Shown here piece after piece: positions 3,804 through 16,864 of a DNA stretch of 16,916 bases (positions are counted from its first letter, which is position 1; each line of letters begins with the position of its first letter). Origin of the DNA: a virus; UHGV virus genome UHGV-0071988. One strand, written 5' to 3'. A program made the position numbers and the translations under genes. The notes beneath the pieces are model-generated. The model worked only from the letters and a program-made list of their open reading frames with translations. It did no database searches and was not told where the DNA came from.

Positions 3804-3879
3804 TGGTGGCCCCTACCGGATTTGAACCGATGACCGTGCGATTATGAGTCGCCTGCTCTAACCACTGAGCTAAGGGGCC
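3804..3879 (-). tRNA. tRNA with anticodon CAU, tRNA-Ile2 (lysidine-type)-like; 76 nt including encoded CCA
   Basis: Minus-strand sequence GGCCCCTTAGCTCAGTGGTTAGAGCAGGCGACTCATAATCGCACGGTCATCGGTTCAAATCCGGTAGGGGCCACCA folds as a cloverleaf (7-bp acceptor stem, D-arm GCTC/GAGC, anticodon loop CTCATAA, T-loop TTCAAAT). Acceptor stem and D-arm match E. coli ileX as recalled from memory; Met isotype not excluded. Confidence 0.85.
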
Positions 3880-13475: not shown

Positions 13476-13499
13476 ATCAAACACATGGAGTCTCGACAA

Positions 13500-14153
13500 A
13501 TGACTATCTCTGTAGGTATTTTCAACGGAAAAGGCGGCGTAACCAAATCAACAATTGCCCGTGCTTTAGCAGTTGCTTATGCAAAGGCTGGCTGGAATGT
13601 ATGCCTGATCGATATGGATGTGCTTAACGGAACGGTAACGCGTTGGGTACAACGCAGAATGGCCAACAATATCGAACCAGCAATCGCGGCGCAGCCGTGC
13701 GGCACACCATCACAAGTCCAGAAAATCATCGAATCAGAAGTATACGACCTGGTTATCGTCGATGGCGGTGCCTACGCATCTGAATCAGTACCGAAGCTCT
13801 CTGAATTTCTGGATATGGTTATTTTGCCAACCAGATTCTCTACCGATGACCTGGAAACCACCGTTAACACAGCTCACGGCATCGTTAAAAAGGGTGTACC
13901 AATCAAGAAAATTTGCATGGTGTTTTCCGGCGCGGCTGAAAACGAAGCTGACTATATTGAAGCCCAAGAGTACCTGGCTAATACGCCATACTTTGTTGTC
14001 GATAAGTACATTCCCCACAAGCCAGCTCTGAGCAAAGCTCAGGATAAGGGCTTAAGCCTCATTGAGTGCTCATACGTTGCGCCACGCAAAAAGGCAGACG
14101 ACGTTATTCAGGGGATTATCAACCAGATTGAGGCTCTGACTACTGCCGCGTAA
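13500..14153 (+). CDS. ParA-family partition ATPase, small type Ib (ParF-like)
   Basis: 217 aa from the second ATG (SD GGAG 9 nt upstream). Deviant Walker A GKGGVTKST near the N-terminus; LIDMD and VIVDGG motifs. Followed by a small RHH-like gene. Confidence 0.85.
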   Translation: MTISVGIFNGKGGVTKSTIARALAVAYAKAGWNVCLIDMDVLNGTVTRWVQRRMANNIEPAIAAQPCGTPSQVQKIIESEVYDLVIVDGGAYASESVPKLSEFLDMVILPTRFSTDDLETTVNTAHGIVKKGVPIKKICMVFSGAAENEADYIEAQEYLANTPYFVVDKYIPHKPALSKAQDKGLSLIECSYVAPRKKADDVIQGIINQIEALTTAA

Positions 14154-14186
14154 TATATAATTATAGTTTTATAGATTTATATAAGA
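14151..14186. repeat. AT-rich site G between parA and the RHH gene
   Basis: TAATATATAATTATAGTTTTATAGATTTATATAAGA; contains the core TATAGATTTATATAA (14170-14184) shared with sites A, B and E. Confidence 0.5.
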
Positions 14187-14196
14187 GGTGATACAC

Positions 14197-14445
14197 ATGG
14201 CCGCACCATCAAAACCACCAAAGAAGAACAGCAAAGGCGTACCGCCATCGATCGAACAACCGCAGGTTTTCGACCCGACTGAAACGCCAACCAGAACCAA
14301 ATCAGGTGGGGCACAAATGGCGTTTAACGTCGACCCTGAATTTAAACGCGAGTACAAAACGTTCGCCAGCTCAATGGATATGTCATTGAAAGAAGTGCTG
14401 ACAAAATCTTTTGAGTTACTCAAGGCTCAATACAACCAGAAGTAA
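14197..14445 (+). CDS. ParG-like ribbon-helix-helix partition/centromere-binding protein (82 aa)
   Basis: Start at ATG 14197 (SD AAGAGG 9 nt upstream). Lys/Pro-rich disordered N-terminal tail, then a beta-strand (MAFNVD) and two helices, as in ParG-type type Ib proteins. Confidence 0.55.
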   Translation: MAAPSKPPKKNSKGVPPSIEQPQVFDPTETPTRTKSGGAQMAFNVDPEFKREYKTFASSMDMSLKEVLTKSFELLKAQYNQK

Positions 14446-14507
14446 GAGAAGGTGACGGCCTCCAGCGCCAACTGTTGGCCGTCGCGACACAACAAGGGGA
14501 ATTTGTT

Positions 14508-14657
14508 ATGTCCGAGCAACAATATACACGGTTACTGAAAACTCGTCTAACCGACCTCAAACGGCTGCAAGCTGGTCGCTTATTTGCCCTGCTATCCACC
14601 AGGCCAGAATGGGTACGTGAAGCAGTTCTGAAAGGCTTAATGCGCTCCAGCGTTTAA
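14508..14657 (+). CDS. Possible small protein (49 aa)
   Basis: Internal ATG of track ORF 14475-14657 with SD AGGGGA 8 nt upstream: MSEQQYTRLLKTRLTDLKRL... Ends 10 nt before a strong hairpin. Confidence 0.35.
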   Translation: MSEQQYTRLLKTRLTDLKRLQAGRLFALLSTRPEWVREAVLKGLMRSSV

Positions 14658-14667
14658 ATTCAACCAT

Positions 14668-14689
14668 AAAAAAGGCCCCCGAAGGGGCC
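14668..14689 (-). terminator. Intrinsic terminator, minus-strand oriented (GGCCCC-cgaa-GGGGCC plus U-run)
   Basis: Hairpin at 14674-14689 with A6 on the plus strand at 14668-14673, giving a U-run after the stem for a minus-strand transcript. No U-run in the plus direction. Confidence 0.55.
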
Positions 14690-15204
14690 TAATCGCTACT
14701 TGCTGCTAATGTTTATCGTCACATTCAGAGCGTTATCAGTAATCTTCCAACCCTCTCCATGTGGCGTAAACAAAGCTCCAGTAACAACGATCAAAATACA
14801 TACGTATTTCCTCATTGTATTGGCCCTCGCAGGCCGTTTCACGGCATCTCCACCGACGAAAATGACGCGAGAGCAAGCACACCGCTTGTGCTTGCGTGTA
14901 CGGCAAGTGGATGATCCTTTCCTTAAAGTCGGTGCCCGGGTGCGAATCGGCGAAAAGGCCCCAAGCCATATTACACGTCCTCGCCTTCATAATGAAGGAA
15001 TAACAAATGCTTTTATTACATGTAATTACATCCGAAGAAGTTAAAAAACTTCATTCTGCATGAACTAAGGAACTAAATTTCTTTATATGAATAGTGGACT
15101 ATTCACCTCAGTTGAGTAAGAATAGATACGCCGCTTGTGCTTGCGTGGTTGTTTATACAACGACGTTATGCTGAAAGGACCGCGAATCCGATCAGCACGA
15201 AAGA

Positions 15205-15231
15205 ACCGTCCTCAAAAGGACGGTTTTTTTG
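15205..15231 (+). terminator. Intrinsic terminator, plus-strand oriented (ACCGTCC-tcaaaa-GGACGGT plus T7)
   Basis: Stem 15205-15211 / 15218-15224 followed by TTTTTTT (15224-15230). The stop codon of the minus-strand regulator gene (15212-15214) lies in its loop. Confidence 0.6.
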
Positions 15232-15784
15232 TTTCTTCACTCATTAAAAACCGTCCAAGACCTGTTGATGACTCCAGATAATCTCGATTATCCATATCAG
15301 CACCGTTATCGACCCAATGTCTATATGCTTCATTGCAACAATACATTACAGCAGTTGGAGTAACAGGGAAGCCGCCCCCAAATGAGAATCCCATTGAGCT
15401 AATGCTAATTCTTTCGAATGGCCTATTTCTCAATGCTTCAAACCCCTTACTGTTGAAGTAACTCAGCATCAGAGGCAAAAGGTTATCCTCGTCCTGATCG
15501 ATTGTTCCCGGGAAAAAGTAGTAACCACAGCGATTAAATTCGGGAATCAGTTTTTCTACCAACAACATGAAATTCATTGGGCTAATATTAAGGGCAGAGC
15601 AAGCACCAAAAAGAGCATCAACCGTTAATACAGACTGCCCGTTCTCTATCTTTGTCCATGCGTTTGGTGTTTTTCCGGCAGCTTGAGCCAGTACTCCTTG
15701 ATGCACACCTCTTTCAAGCCTAAGTTCTTTTATGATCATTAGGTGAATTGTTGAAAAACATGAATTTTTTGATGTTTCAGTCAT
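15212..15784 (-). CDS. XRE-family HTH transcriptional regulator with uncharacterised C-terminal domain (190 aa), AT-rich
   Basis: Strong SD GAGGAGG 6 nt upstream. N-terminal IIKELRLERGVHQGVLAQAAGKTPNAWTKIENGQSVLTVDALFGACSALNISP is a Cro/C1-type HTH. Divergent from the antirepressor-like operon. Confidence 0.7.
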   Translation of the reverse strand: MTETSKNSCFSTIHLMIIKELRLERGVHQGVLAQAAGKTPNAWTKIENGQSVLTVDALFGACSALNISPMNFMLLVEKLIPEFNRCGYYFFPGTIDQDEDNLLPLMLSYFNSKGFEALRNRPFERISISSMGFSFGGGFPVTPTAVMYCCNEAYRHWVDNGADMDNRDYLESSTGLGRFLMSEETKKPSF

Positions 15785-15981: not shown

Positions 15982-16358
15982 AGTGTCAAACAAATTTGAT
16001 TGGTCAAATCATGCGCTTAATGAGCAGAAAATTCCGTTTTTCAAACCCACGCTATGTGGTTGTCTCTGTTAAAATCTCGCCGTATTGACATGAATGCGCC
16101 ATTGGTGGACACTTTCCGAGCCGTAGCAAAATCTACGGCCGGGATTGGAACCCCGTAGACACAATGGCGCATACCGCGTTAGCGGTTTTTTTATGCGTAA
16201 AGCACTGCTACACCCAAATTATGGTGGGGCGTGCGGGGGAGTCGTAAGACTCGCCGGTTCGTCATTGTGTCCGGTAGTTCCAACCCTGCACGTCTCACCA
16301 CCCAATGATTGGAACCTGACGGTGGTGAGTATCCTTAACCTTTAAGGGAATCATCACA

Positions 16359-16550
16359 ATGACAAACCTACCCCATGACTATTACGTCAACCTCGTAAAG
16401 ATCCTTCTCAAGAAAGCCTCATACGCCGATAAATTCCGCCTGGCTGAAATAATCGAGCGCGAAGCTATGCGCATCGCCAGCAACGATAACGCTGTTTCTG
16501 ACGCAAAAATCTCCCTCGTAACCAAAGTAGTTATGGGAGGTGCAAAATGA
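16359..16550 (+). CDS. Hypothetical small protein (63 aa)
   Basis: ORF with SD AAGGGAA; stop overlaps the start of the next gene (ATGA). Confidence 0.5.
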   Translation: MTNLPHDYYVNLVKILLKKASYADKFRLAEIIEREAMRIASNDNAVSDAKISLVTKVVMGGAK

Positions 16551-16864
16551 AAACGCTTCCGACCGTTAACACCCTACAGCCTATCCTGCATAACCAAATC
16601 CCTGTCATTACTACCGAGTTACTGGCACAGCTTTACGGCGTATCTCCTGTACGCATTCGACAAAATCATCATGAGAATAAGGAACGCTTCATTGAAGGTA
16701 AGCACTACTTCAAAATTGAAGGTAACGAACTTCGAGAGTTAAAGCACAAAGTGACTCAAGATAATGATGTGAAGAACAAAAACTCTTTAAGAGATTCAGT
16801 TAATGACGCCCCCTCTAAAAGAGAGAGCGTCGAGCACAGAGTAGTTTTAAACTACTCTGTTTGA
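16547..16864 (+). CDS. ORF6N/KilA-N-like domain protein (antirepressor-like N-terminal domain, 105 aa)
   Basis: SD GGGAGG 6 nt upstream. Segment ITTELLAQLYGVSPVRIRQNHHENKERFIEGKHYFKIEGNELRELK matches my recollection of the ORF6N/Bro-N-type domain found at the N-terminus of phage antirepressors. Confidence 0.55.
   Translation: MKTLPTVNTLQPILHNQIPVITTELLAQLYGVSPVRIRQNHHENKERFIEGKHYFKIEGNELRELKHKVTQDNDVKNKNSLRDSVNDAPSKRESVEHRVVLNYSV

What the first reader, a model, noticed from the sequence alone, without database searches (positions are those of the whole stretch)
14658..15211. Non-coding block bracketed by two outward-facing terminators, with hairpins and a 17-nt direct repeat
No convincing ORF lies in this 550-bp block. 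It is bounded by a minus-oriented terminator (14668-14689) and a plus-oriented terminator (15205-15231), consistent with two short divergent transcripts. Inside are a 17-nt exact direct repeat CCGCTTGTGCTTGCGTG (14882-14898 and 15131-15147), a 9-bp-stem hairpin (14873-14895) that includes the first repeat, the palindrome CCTTCATaATGAAGG (14983-14997) sequestering the SD of an 18-codon ORF (15007-15063), and the hairpin GAATAGTggACTATTC (15089-15104). This could be an sRNA locus, a replication or incompatibility determinant, or a type I toxin-antitoxin-like arrangement.
Basis: seen in the sequence. Interest (0 to 1): 0.5.

Follow-up and report, generated by a model that had tools for sequence, protein, structure and literature searches.

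The report
Phage-plasmid timP/timR toxin-antitoxin locus
The supposedly non-coding block is an unannotated, divergent copy of the known enterobacterial timP/timR type I toxin-antitoxin system, a small membrane-toxin mRNA plus a divergently transcribed antisense RNA, and it sits next to the partition genes of a ~48-kb phage-plasmid.

Summary
[quoted passage not shown] It carries a 39-codon ORF (14815-14696) that is 49% identical to a RefSeq-annotated plasmid TimP.

The plus strand about 15130-15232 encodes a TimR-like sRNA. Its central hairpin and terminator are homologous to E. coli K-12 TimR.

The two copies change together across plasmid haplotypes. The pseudoknot needed for timP translation is also kept, by compensatory changes relative to K-12.

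The 18-codon ORF and the longer ORFs are not conserved, and the RNAI resemblance is below threshold.

The block is found in 59 PLSDB plasmids, 72 of 5426 complete E. coli genomes and three Yersinia phages. It lies between the par operon and an isrK/C4 immunity region, and is absent from Salmonella relatives.

Verdict: a new, unannotated member of a known family. A plasmid-addiction role is inferred, not shown.

The parts
14668..14963 (-). timP mRNA (= ryfA RNA), about 296 nt. The 5' end is probably G14962 +/-1.
   Evidence: Rfam RF00126 match, 132.9 bits (gathering score 80), E 2.4e-34, model positions 1-296. All plasmid haplogroups score 129-143 bits. The 5' end is placed by alignment to the annotated K-12 ryfA 5' end and by the spacing from the -10 box.
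14968..14996 (-). Predicted timP promoter: -35 TTCATT (14996-14991), 17-nt spacer, -10 TAATAT (14973-14968).
   Evidence: Read from the sequence. The -10 box (TAATAT/TAACAT/TAAAAT) keeps a fixed distance from the conserved 5' end in all haplogroups. It falls below the 9/12 threshold of the promoter scan. This is an inference.
14881..14898 (-). TimR-binding site in the timP 5'UTR: the 5' arm and loop of stem-loop SL2 (hairpin 14895-14873).
   Evidence: It is complementary to 15130-15147. All 10 family haplotypes pair at every position, with two compensatory positions. It lies 53 nt upstream of the SD and 66 nt upstream of the AUG, matching the published arrangement.
14928..14934 (-). Pseudoknot site 1 (CACCGAC) in the upper part of SL1.
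   Evidence: It gives a perfect 7-bp match to site 3. The helix is 100% paired in 11 sequences, with two compensatory changes relative to K-12 (helix 3). The site definitions come from PMC11228461 and PMC13000454.
14851..14857 (-). Pseudoknot site 3 (GUCGGUG) in the SL3 loop.
14900..14904 (-). Site 2 (GCCGU), complementary to the 5' flank of SL4 (site 4).
   Evidence: 5-bp pairing, 100% paired in 11 sequences (helix 1).
14833..14837 (-). Site 4 (ACGGC), the 5' flank of SL4.
14822..14835 (-). SL4 stem-loop, which contains the Shine-Dalgarno sequence GAGGG (14828-14824).
   Evidence: ryfA model alignment. The 4-bp stem is paired in all 11 sequences, with one compensatory change (helix 6). The SD lies 8 nt upstream of the AUG.
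14696..14815 (-). timP coding sequence: 39 codons plus stop, MRKYVCILIVVTGALFTPHGEGWKITDNALNVTINISSK.
   Evidence: It is the only frame conserved in all relatives, and its one indel is an in-frame 3-nt indel. It is 49% identical (E 4e-15) to the RefSeq-annotated TimP of plasmid pGDT4 and 31% identical to K-12 TimP. It aligns end to end with NCBIfam NF040796, E 3e-4, but below that model's cutoff. The N-terminal half is hydrophobic.
14668..14690 (-). Intrinsic terminator of timP.
   Evidence: Terminator scan; 3' end of the ryfA model.
14964..15129 (.). Divergent-promoter spacer. It is hypervariable among relatives and contains the non-conserved 18-codon ORF 15007-15063.
   Evidence: The alignment shows many substitutions and indels here, while both RNAs are conserved. 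The ORF is absent outside the window and L004.
15095..15123 (+). Predicted timR promoter: -35 TGGACT (15095-15100), 17-nt spacer, -10 AAGAAT (15118-15123).
   Evidence: Both boxes are conserved in every haplogroup although their flanks have diverged. Sequence conservation begins sharply at G15130. This is an inference.
15130..15232 (+). TimR-like antitoxin sRNA, about 100 nt: single-stranded 5' seed, variable hairpin, conserved central hairpin, terminator.
   Evidence: The fold has z = -6.4. The central hairpin and terminator align with K-12, Citrobacter and another Escherichia TimR, with compensatory pairs. K-12 timR is annotated. The gene arrangement matches PMC7667032.
15130..15147 (+). It forms an 18-bp duplex with 14898-14881, with G15130 pairing as G.U.
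15197..15232 (+). TimR intrinsic terminator. It is bidirectional and shared with the convergent HTH gene.
   Evidence: (I1). Homology between relatives with different downstream genes ends here.
15088..15105 (.). 8+8 palindrome TGAATAGT-GG-ACTATTCA over the timR -35 box. Possible operator; function unknown.
   Evidence: It is kept by symmetric changes (ATAATAGT-GG-ACTATTAT) in the L009 haplogroup and is absent in the L006-8 group. It is unique in the window.
14984..14998 (.). Palindrome CCTTCAT-a-ATGAAGG over the timP -35 box. Possible operator; function unknown.
   Evidence: It is conserved in 3 of 4 haplogroups. There is no other good copy in the window.

Best explanation
The block is a timPR-family type I toxin-antitoxin module carried as cargo on a ~48-kb phage-plasmid.

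The toxin side. The minus strand gives a ~296-nt timP mRNA (14963 to 14668). Its 148-nt leader folds into stem-loops SL1-SL4, and SL4 holds the Shine-Dalgarno sequence. As shown for Salmonella timP, translation of the 39-aa hydrophobic TimP (14815-14696) should require two long-range contacts: the site 1/site 3 pseudoknot (14934-14928 with 14857-14851) and the site 2/site 4 contact that opens SL4.

The antitoxin side. From a promoter 167 bp away on the other strand, a ~100-nt TimR RNA (15130-15232) is made. Its first 18 nt pair with SL2 (14898-14881), which is expected to destabilise the active fold and block translation.

What is shown and what is inferred.
- Shown here: homology of both RNAs and of the peptide, conservation and co-variation of the duplex and the pseudoknot, and the gene arrangement.
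- Inferred from the Salmonella work: toxicity, membrane targeting and translational repression.
- Inferred from position only: that on this element the module acts as a post-segregational-killing (addiction) device beside the par operon. I put about 0.4 on that role. Phage exclusion, or a role independent of toxicity, remain open.
For: - Rfam ryfA hit at 132.9 bits against a gathering score of 80, over the full model. All haplogroups score 129-143 bits.
- MG1655 now annotates ryfA, timP and timR in the same divergent arrangement.
- The TimP ORF is the only conserved frame. It is 49% identical (E 4e-15) to the RefSeq TimP of plasmid pGDT4 and aligns end to end with the NCBIfam TimP model.
- The central hairpin and terminator of TimR are homologous to K-12 and Citrobacter TimR, with compensatory pairs.
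- The 17-nt repeat has a chance expectation of 0.00.
- The TimR:timP duplex is 100% paired in 10 haplotypes. Two positions change on both sides, and the one-sided changes give G.U pairs. Sliding the partner by 1-3 columns drops pairing to 24-47%.
- The pseudoknot is 7/7 paired in all 11 sequences, with two compensatory changes relative to K-12. The site 2/site 4 helix is 100% paired.
- The geometry matches the published rule: the sRNA lies upstream on the opposite strand, its 5' end is complementary to the leader about 60 nt before the RBS, and a terminator follows.
- The plasmid TimR is orthogonal to the K-12 timP leader, -21 against -38 kcal/mol. A plasmid addiction module in an E. coli host would need this insulation.
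- The block lies directly downstream of the ParA operon. It is present in the Escherichia and Klebsiella family plasmids in PLSDB (59 records with the block, against 58 Escherichia/Klebsiella records with the par genes).
Against: - No expression, toxicity or stability data exist for this copy.
- The peptide scores only 20.8 bits on NCBIfam NF040796 (cutoff 45), so it is a divergent member.
- The site 1/site 2 'inactive' pairing described for Salmonella is weak here: I could find only about 4 bp by eye.
- In Salmonella, deleting timR is not lethal and no plasmid- or phage-related phenotype was found, so killing after plasmid loss is not assured.
- Salmonella relatives of the phage-plasmid lack the block, so it is dispensable for the element.
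- The co-variation rests on only three duplex haplotypes plus K-12. Gene conversion between the two repeat copies could in principle mimic it.
- Both promoters are below the threshold of the promoter scan.
Confidence: 0.88

Rival explanations
1. The locus is the same timPR homolog, but on this element it serves phage defence or superinfection exclusion, or a membrane function independent of toxicity, rather than post-segregational killing.
For: The element is a phage: three infectious Yersinia myoviruses carry the block. The block lies next to the isrK/C4 immunity region. The timPR literature cites hok/sok excluding T4 as a role of type I systems. Native-level TimP is not growth-inhibitory in Salmonella. 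Palindromes over both promoters hint at regulated rather than constitutive expression.
Against: The Salmonella timPR deletion had no effect on P22 infection. The block directly follows the par operon, and the element already carries a RelE/ParE type II module, which fits a cluster of maintenance genes. No regulator has been identified for the palindromes.
Confidence: 0.3
2. The two RNAs act only as regulatory non-coding RNAs: RyfA as a trans-acting sRNA and TimR as its sponge or partner. The small ORF is not translated to any functional effect.
For: RyfA was long treated as an sRNA, and phenotypes in UPEC and APEC are ascribed to the RNA (papers listed). The C-terminal two-thirds of the ORF is invariant at the nucleotide level within the family, so no synonymous-versus-nonsynonymous signal is available there.
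Against: Between the window, the pGDT4 and Serratia plasmids and K-12, the ORF keeps its frame, length (39-41 aa), start position and hydrophobic N-terminus while the nucleotide sequence diverges to about 70%. The only indel inside the ORF is an in-frame codon. Translation and toxicity of TimP were shown experimentally for Salmonella.
Confidence: 0.07
3. The plus-strand RNA is a replication-control or incompatibility antisense RNA of the RNAI/CopA type, and the repeat marks its target in a replication leader.
For: There is a sub-threshold Rfam RNAI match at 15136-15231 (28.4 bits, E 0.0037 in a 701-nt search). The element is a plasmid.
Against: The RNAI score is far below the gathering score of 47, and the match was not listed in the whole-window gathering-threshold search. 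The antisense target lies in an RNA that matches ryfA over its full length and encodes TimP, not a Rep protein or a primer. The body of the RNA is homologous to chromosomal TimR. Salmonella relatives replicate without the block.
Confidence: 0.02
4. The block is a decaying remnant or a chance assembly of hairpins and repeats with no present function.
For: It is unannotated in every record examined. The peptide is almost never called as a gene, with 2 clusters among 5.8 billion. The spacer is hypervariable.
Against: Both RNAs, both terminators, both promoter boxes, the ORF, the duplex and the pseudoknot are conserved or co-vary, while the spacer between them diverges freely. That is the signature of purifying selection on exactly the functional parts.
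Confidence: 0.03

Closest known systems
Chromosomal timP/timR (ryfA/ryfB, STnc2070) of Salmonella Typhimurium and E. coli K-12 (PMC7667032, PMC11228461, PMC13000454; MG1655 b4440/b4812/b4811)
   Same: - Divergent gene pair.
- ~300-nt mRNA with a four-stem-loop leader.
- SD held in SL4.
- Site 1/site 3 pseudoknot and site 2/site 4 contact.
- A 38-41-aa hydrophobic peptide at the same position.
- A ~100-nt sRNA whose 5' 18-20 nt pair with SL2, followed by a conserved central hairpin and a terminator.
   Different: - Only about 68-70% nucleotide identity over the leader.
- Peptide 31% identical to K-12 TimP and below the NCBIfam cutoff.
- The seed/target sequence is unrelated, so the two systems should not cross-talk.
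- The spacer between the 5' ends is 167 bp here against about 400 bp in K-12.
- The location is a phage-plasmid beside par, not the sseA-sseB chromosomal site.
Plasmid-borne timP of Yersinia pseudotuberculosis pGDT4 (NC_011759; RefSeq 'small toxic inner membrane protein TimP') and of Serratia conjugative plasmids
   Same: These are the closest peptide relatives: 39 aa, 49% identity, no gaps. They have the same divergent TimR with a complementary 5' end, and they are also plasmid cargo.
   Different: Those are 90-118-kb conjugative plasmids of Yersiniaceae, where the locus sits among transfer genes. Their RNAs score 214-235 bits on ryfA against 133 bits here. Their peptide is recognised by annotation pipelines and this one is not.
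hok/sok of plasmid R1 (a type I post-segregational-killing system)
   Same: A small membrane toxin, antisense-RNA antitoxin, plasmid location next to maintenance functions, and an SD sequestered by mRNA structure.
   Different: There is no sequence or family relationship. Sok overlaps its target in cis and acts through the mok reading frame and 3' processing of the mRNA. timP is reported to need no processing, and TimR is encoded separately from its target. Post-segregational killing is proven for hok/sok and untested here.
tisB/istR-1, zorO/orzO, shoB/ohsC, dinQ/agrB (divergently encoded type I systems of E. coli)
   Same: The antitoxin gene lies beside the toxin gene on the opposite strand, rather than overlapping it, and has a limited 18-20-nt complementarity to the toxin 5'UTR far upstream of the RBS.
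   Different: These are unrelated sequences. They rely on mRNA processing and ribosome standby sites rather than on a pseudoknot switch.

Membership tests
timPR / ryfA (Rfam RF00126) | The RNA matches the ryfA covariance model at or above the gathering score. | tested here: met
   132.9 bits against 80, model positions 1-296 of 296. Eight fetched relatives covering all haplogroups score 129-143 bits.
timPR / ryfA (Rfam RF00126) | A small ORF (about 38-41 codons) at the conserved position downstream of SL4, encoding a TimP-like peptide with a hydrophobic N-terminus. | tested here: met
   39 codons, AUG at mRNA nt 149, SD 8 nt upstream. It is 49% identical (E 4e-15) to the annotated TimP of pGDT4 and 31% identical to K-12 TimP. 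The hydropathy peak covers residues 4-16.
timPR / ryfA (Rfam RF00126) | The peptide reaches the curated cutoff of NCBIfam NF040796 (toxic_TimP). | tested here: not met
   20.8 bits (22.2 for the 40-aa variant) against a cutoff of 45. The alignment covers nearly the whole model (positions 4-40 of 40; 1-40 for the variant), with E 1e-4 to 3e-4. K-12 TimP scores 86.8 bits. The peptide is therefore a divergent subfamily member. This explains the missing annotation, and I do not take it as grounds for excluding the locus from the family.
timPR / ryfA (Rfam RF00126) | An sRNA gene upstream of timP on the opposite strand, whose 5' end is complementary (about 18 nt) to SL2 of the leader more than 50-60 nt before the RBS, followed by an intrinsic terminator. 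| tested here: met
   18-bp duplex between 15130-15147 and 14898-14881, 53 nt before the SD. The terminator lies at 15197-15232. The criterion is taken from PMC7667032.
timPR / ryfA (Rfam RF00126) | The body of the sRNA is homologous to TimR. | tested here: met
   The central hairpin UGCUG-AAAGG-CCGCGAA-...-CAGCA and the terminator align with K-12, Citrobacter and a second Escherichia TimR, with 3 compensatory pairs. There is no Rfam model for TimR.
timPR / ryfA (Rfam RF00126) | The structural switch in the leader: the site 1/site 3 pseudoknot and the site 2/site 4 pairing that frees the SD from SL4. | tested here: met
   Sites 1/3 give 7 of 7 bp, paired in all 11 sequences with 2 compensatory changes. 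Sites 2/4 give 5 bp, 100% paired. The inhibitory site 1/site 2 pairing is only about 4 bp here by inspection, so that part is inconclusive.
timPR / ryfA (Rfam RF00126) | TimP is toxic on over-expression and targets the inner membrane, and TimR represses its translation. | not testable with these tools
   This needs experiments. It was shown only for the Salmonella system.
Plasmid addiction (post-segregational killing) type I systems, hok/sok-like | The antitoxin RNA is less stable than the toxin mRNA, the module stabilises a plasmid, and plasmid-free segregants are killed. | not testable with these tools
   Only positional evidence is available: the block is adjacent to the par operon and present in 59 PLSDB plasmids of the family against 58 Escherichia/Klebsiella records carrying the par genes. 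[quoted passage not shown]
Plasmid addiction (post-segregational killing) type I systems, hok/sok-like | A 5'-3' fold-back of the full-length mRNA that keeps it inactive until 3' processing. | tested here: not met
   The window has a 13-nt, 85% complementarity between the 5' end and the terminator region (I3). However, the 5' arm changes in the L009 haplogroup without any compensation in the invariant 3' arm. timP is reported to be unprocessed.
ColE1 RNAI (Rfam RF00106) replication-control RNA | A match at or above the gathering score. | tested here: not met
   28.4 bits against 47.

The most novel reading that the evidence does not exclude
On this phage-plasmid, timPR is a working addiction or exclusion module that is wired into the element's own regulation. 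Perfect palindromes sit over the -35 boxes of both the timR and the timP promoters. The one at timR is preserved by symmetric substitutions in a diverged haplogroup. A plasmid- or phage-encoded DNA-binding protein could therefore tip the TimR/TimP balance, for example at induction or on superinfection.

That would give the timPR family, which has no clear phenotype on chromosomes, its first physiological role. It would also be a case of a type I system moving horizontally on a phage.
Probability: 0.15. Interest if true: 0.55.

Novelty: new member of a known kind. Interest (0 to 1): 0.33.

Why it matters
- Physiological role. The timPR system is mechanistically well studied, through its pseudoknot-based translational switch, but it has no established physiological role on chromosomes. 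A divergent copy sits beside the partition operon of a widespread 46-52-kb phage-plasmid: 72 of 5426 complete E. coli genomes, 59 PLSDB plasmids and three infectious Yersinia phages. It is predicted not to cross-talk with the host's own TimR. This is a natural setting in which to test whether the family can do post-segregational killing or phage exclusion.
- Natural test of the structural model. The seed/target duplex and the pseudoknot are rebuilt with different sequences in this copy.
- Annotation gap. Neither RNA nor the peptide is annotated in any of the records examined. The curated TimP protein model misses the peptide, while the Rfam ryfA model finds the RNA easily.
- Limits on the novelty. 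The family itself is known, and plasmid-borne timP is already annotated in RefSeq (pGDT4). This is an incremental finding, not a new kind of system.

Tried and rejected
- **Long ORFs across the block.** The 84-aa minus-strand ORF 14736-14990 and the 114-aa plus-strand ORF 14700-15044 change length, frame and ends between relatives because of 1-nt indels. The 84-aa ORF also starts upstream of the mRNA 5' end. Both are rejected as genes.
The ORF is intact only in the window and L004. The palindrome sits on the timP -35 box instead.
- **Internal promoter-like site from the scan.** The site GTGAAA-17-TACAAT (14842-14814) lies inside SL3/SL4 and overlaps the AUG. I treat it as a by-product of the conserved leader sequence.
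- **Whole-length RNAduplex energy as a statistic.** TimR against timP compared with shuffles was uninformative: 399 of 500 shuffles scored at least as well, because long sequences form loop-rich duplexes. I replaced it with exact-repeat statistics, pair counting and seed-restricted duplex energies.
- **Collection scans with too short a pattern.** Local BLAST rescued six IMG/VR family members, one Escherichia-like chromosome and one Citrobacter contig.
- **RNAI / replication control.** The match is below threshold.
- **hok-like 5'-3' fold-back.** It is not conserved.
- **Literature search.** I found no paper on timPR or ryfA in phage-plasmids, and none on the Yersinia phages. This shows only that nothing is in the searchable library.
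- **Extra copies of either palindrome in the window.** None were found.
Full report
**Observation**

- The 17-nt repeat CCGCTTGTGCTTGCGTG occurs exactly twice, at 14882-14898 and 15131-15147. No shuffle of the window gave a match, even with two mismatches allowed. It extends to 20 nt with one mismatch.
- The minus-strand terminator (stem 14690-14673 plus T-run) was found by the scan.
- The plus-strand hairpin plus T-run at 15197-15232 appears as an inverted repeat and as the terminal stem of the folded RNA.
- The 9-bp hairpin 14873-14895 is in the minimum-free-energy fold.
- GAATAGTggACTATTC is at 15089-15104.
- The 18-codon ORF 15007-15063 exists.

The description is therefore accurate. The exception is the statement that no convincing ORF lies in the block.

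**What it is**

A gathering-threshold Rfam scan of the whole window put the minus strand 14963-14668 in RF00126 (ryfA). The score is 132.9 bits against a threshold of 80, with E 2.4e-34, over all 296 model positions.

ryfA is no longer regarded as a non-coding RNA. Andresen et al. 2020 (PMC7667032) showed that it is the mRNA of the small toxic inner-membrane protein TimP, which is repressed by the divergently encoded sRNA TimR. MG1655 now annotates ryfA (b4440), timP (b4812) and timR (b4811) in that arrangement.

In the window the homologous ORF starts at AUG 14815 and stops at 14698-14696. It encodes 39 aa: MRKYVCILIVVTGALFTPHGEGWKITDNALNVTINISSK. GAGGG lies 8 nt upstream of the start. The evidence that this is a TimP homolog:
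- It is 31% identical to K-12 TimP.
- It is 49% identical, without gaps (E 4e-15), to the RefSeq-annotated TimP of the Yersinia pseudotuberculosis conjugative plasmid pGDT4.
- It aligns end to end with the NCBIfam TimP model, but at only 20.8 bits against a cutoff of 45.

That low score explains why annotation pipelines skip it. The peptide is essentially never called: there are two unnamed clusters among 5.8 billion.

**The antitoxin and the 'direct repeat'**

The published rule for the family has three parts:
- That sequence forms the 5' end of an sRNA and is followed by an intrinsic terminator.
- The target lies about 60 nt upstream of the RBS.

Repeat copy 2 plus the plus-strand terminator fits this exactly. 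An RNA starting at G15130 would pair its first 18 nt with 14898-14881 of the mRNA. That target is the 5' arm and loop of SL2, 53 nt before the SD and 66 nt before the AUG.

The ~100-nt RNA folds well, with z = -6.4. It has a free 5' end, two hairpins and the terminator. The central hairpin (UGCUGAAAGGACCGCGAAUCCGAUCAGCA) and the terminator align with TimR of K-12, Citrobacter and a second Escherichia genome, with compensatory pairs. Rfam has no TimR model. The only sub-threshold match there is RNAI, at 28.4 bits against 47.

**Relatives and co-variation**

The block occurs at 78-98% identity in several collections:
- 59 PLSDB plasmids (58 Escherichia, 1 Klebsiella aerogenes), all but one partial 32-kb record 46-52 kb (one apparent 94-kb dimer), all non-mobilizable.
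- 72 of 5426 complete E. coli genomes.
- Three Yersinia myophages.
- Several IMG/VR contigs.

An alignment of 14 loci shows the pattern expected of two functional RNAs separated by filler. The mRNA and the TimR body are nearly invariant, and the spacer 14964-15129 is full of substitutions and indels.

The two repeat copies change together. The motif is ..AAGCGG.. in both copies in the window and L004, ..AAACAG.. in both in the L001 and L006 groups, and ..AAGCAG.. in both in the L009 group. The remaining one-sided changes give G.U pairs.

I counted pairs formally on 11 distinct constructs. Within the family the duplex is 100% paired, with two positions changed on both sides. Every unpaired cell comes from the mis-registered K-12 row. 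Sliding the partner by 1-3 columns drops pairing to 24-47%.

Other leader elements are also kept (site definitions from PMC11228461 and PMC13000454):
- The pseudoknot that Eleftheraki and Holmqvist showed to be essential for timP translation is present as CACCGAC (14934-14928) with GUCGGUG (14857-14851). It is paired in all 11 sequences, with two compensatory changes relative to K-12's CGCUGGC/GCCAGUG.
- The site 2/site 4 contact (14904-14900 with 14837-14833) is also fully paired.
- SL1, SL2, SL3 and SL4 are each 92-100% paired.

**Promoters**

Neither promoter passes the 9/12 scan threshold, but both are conserved in position.
- timR: TGGACT-17-AAGAAT (15095-15123), or TGGACT-16-TAAAAT in the L009 group. 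It sits in front of a sharp onset of conservation at G15130.
- timP: TTCATT-17-TAATAT (14996-14968). Its -10 box has the same spacing from the 5' end as in K-12 ryfA if transcription starts at G14962.

**What was rejected**

- The 18-codon ORF is intact only in the window and a 98%-identical plasmid.
- The 84- and 114-aa ORFs change frame and length between relatives. The TimP frame is the only constant one, and the one indel inside it is a whole codon.
- A hok-like 5'-3' fold-back exists in the window (I3) but is not maintained in the L009 group.

**Context and likely role**

The window belongs to a phage-plasmid. The evidence is circular ~48-kb plasmids such as that of E. coli ATCC 25922, and infectious Yersinia phages vB_YpM_39, 41 and 44.

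The block follows a ParA gene and two small ORFs. It precedes either an HTH gene or, in other haplogroups, directly the isrK/C4 immunity region.

The par genes are 97-99.8% identical among Escherichia and Klebsiella plasmids whose timPR blocks are only 78-98% identical. Salmonella relatives of the element carry an unrelated ORF in this slot and have no ryfA match. The block is therefore accessory cargo bounded by its two terminators.

Seed-restricted duplex energies:

| TimR paired with | Energy (kcal/mol) |
|---|---|
| Cognate plasmid leader | -36 to -40 |
| Other plasmid haplotype | -31 to -35.5 |
| K-12 chromosomal leader | -19 to -22 |

The plasmid system should be insulated from the host's own timPR. 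The plasmid variants probably cross-react with one another.

From position and insulation, I infer a maintenance (post-segregational killing) role as most likely, at roughly 0.4. This is not shown. In Salmonella, loss of TimR is tolerated, and no persister or P22 phenotype was seen. Phage exclusion, or a role independent of toxicity, remain real alternatives.

**Novelty**

The family, its mechanism and even plasmid-borne copies are known: pGDT4 is annotated in RefSeq, and Serratia plasmids carry it too. I found no paper on timPR or ryfA in phage-plasmids, and none of the records I examined for this phage-plasmid family annotates the locus.

The finding is a new, divergent, unannotated member of a known kind. 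I score its interest as modest (0.33). Its main uses are as a natural context in which to test what timPR is for, and as independent co-variation support for the published RNA switch.

Noticed in passing
window 16120-16305 (+), with ORFs 16359-16550 and 16547-16864: isrK (70 bits) and C4 antisense RNA (77.8 bits) lie in tandem, followed by a small ORF and an ORF6N-domain protein. This is a P1/P7 immI-like (c4-icd-ant) immunity region about 0.9 kb from the timPR block. In other haplogroups it lies directly after the TimR terminator.
   Followed up: partly
window 15088-15105: A perfect 8+8 palindrome TGAATAGT-GG-ACTATTCA covers the predicted -35 box of the timR promoter. In the L009/L035 haplogroup the outer two bases of both arms change symmetrically (ATAATAGT-GG-ACTATTAT). 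The palindrome is missing in the L006-L008 group. It may be an operator; no binding protein was identified and there is no second copy in the window.
   Followed up: partly
window 14984-14998: The palindrome CCTTCAT-a-ATGAAGG covers the predicted -35 box of the timP promoter. It is conserved in three of four haplogroups (extended to 8+8 in L006/L007) and replaced by unrelated sequence in the L009 group.
   Followed up: partly
window 15197-15256: The TimR terminator is shared with the convergent 190-aa HTH gene (15212-15784, minus strand), whose stop codon lies in the hairpin loop. The arm GGACGGTTTTT (15218-15228) can pair either with 15201-15211 or with a second copy, AAAAACCGTCC, at 15246-15256 inside that gene. 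This gives alternative hairpins on the minus-strand mRNA, resembling an attenuator.
   Followed up: no
window 14668-14696 and 14950-14963: The first 10 nt after the 5'-terminal U of the timP mRNA (GGGGCCUUUU) repeat the 3' arm of its own terminator. As a result the 5' end is 85% complementary over 13 nt to the terminator's 5' arm region. This looks like hok-style fold-back, but it is not maintained in the L009 haplogroup.
   Followed up: partly
L258 2980-3250 (Salmonella Weltevreden plasmid NZ_LN890526): A Salmonella relative of the phage-plasmid (par genes 81% identical) has an unrelated ~88-codon ORF in place of timPR, between the par operon and the isrK/C4 region. This slot is therefore a variable cargo site.
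   Followed up: partly
window 13485-14657 compared with 14658-15232, across plasmids: The par genes are 97-99.8% identical among Escherichia and Klebsiella plasmids whose adjacent timPR blocks are only 78-98% identical. Divergence is concentrated in the inter-promoter spacer and the seed/target. This suggests recombination or faster evolution of the module.
   Followed up: partly
L226 3214-3313 and 3539-3603; L256 (pGDT4) upstream of timP: An Escherichia-like chromosome carries two TimR-like genes next to one ryfA, and only the nearer copy is complementary to that ryfA. pGDT4 also has a second TimR-like hairpin-terminator unit. Spare or orphan antitoxin copies seem to be common.
   Followed up: no
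window 3807-3879 (-): A tRNA gene (67 bits) lies in the phage-plasmid's early region.
   Followed up: no
L001 11283-11630 (ATCC 25922 plasmid), outside the window: The same phage-plasmid family also carries a RelE/ParE type II toxin with an HTH antitoxin, so timPR would be one of at least two toxin-antitoxin modules on the element.
   Followed up: no
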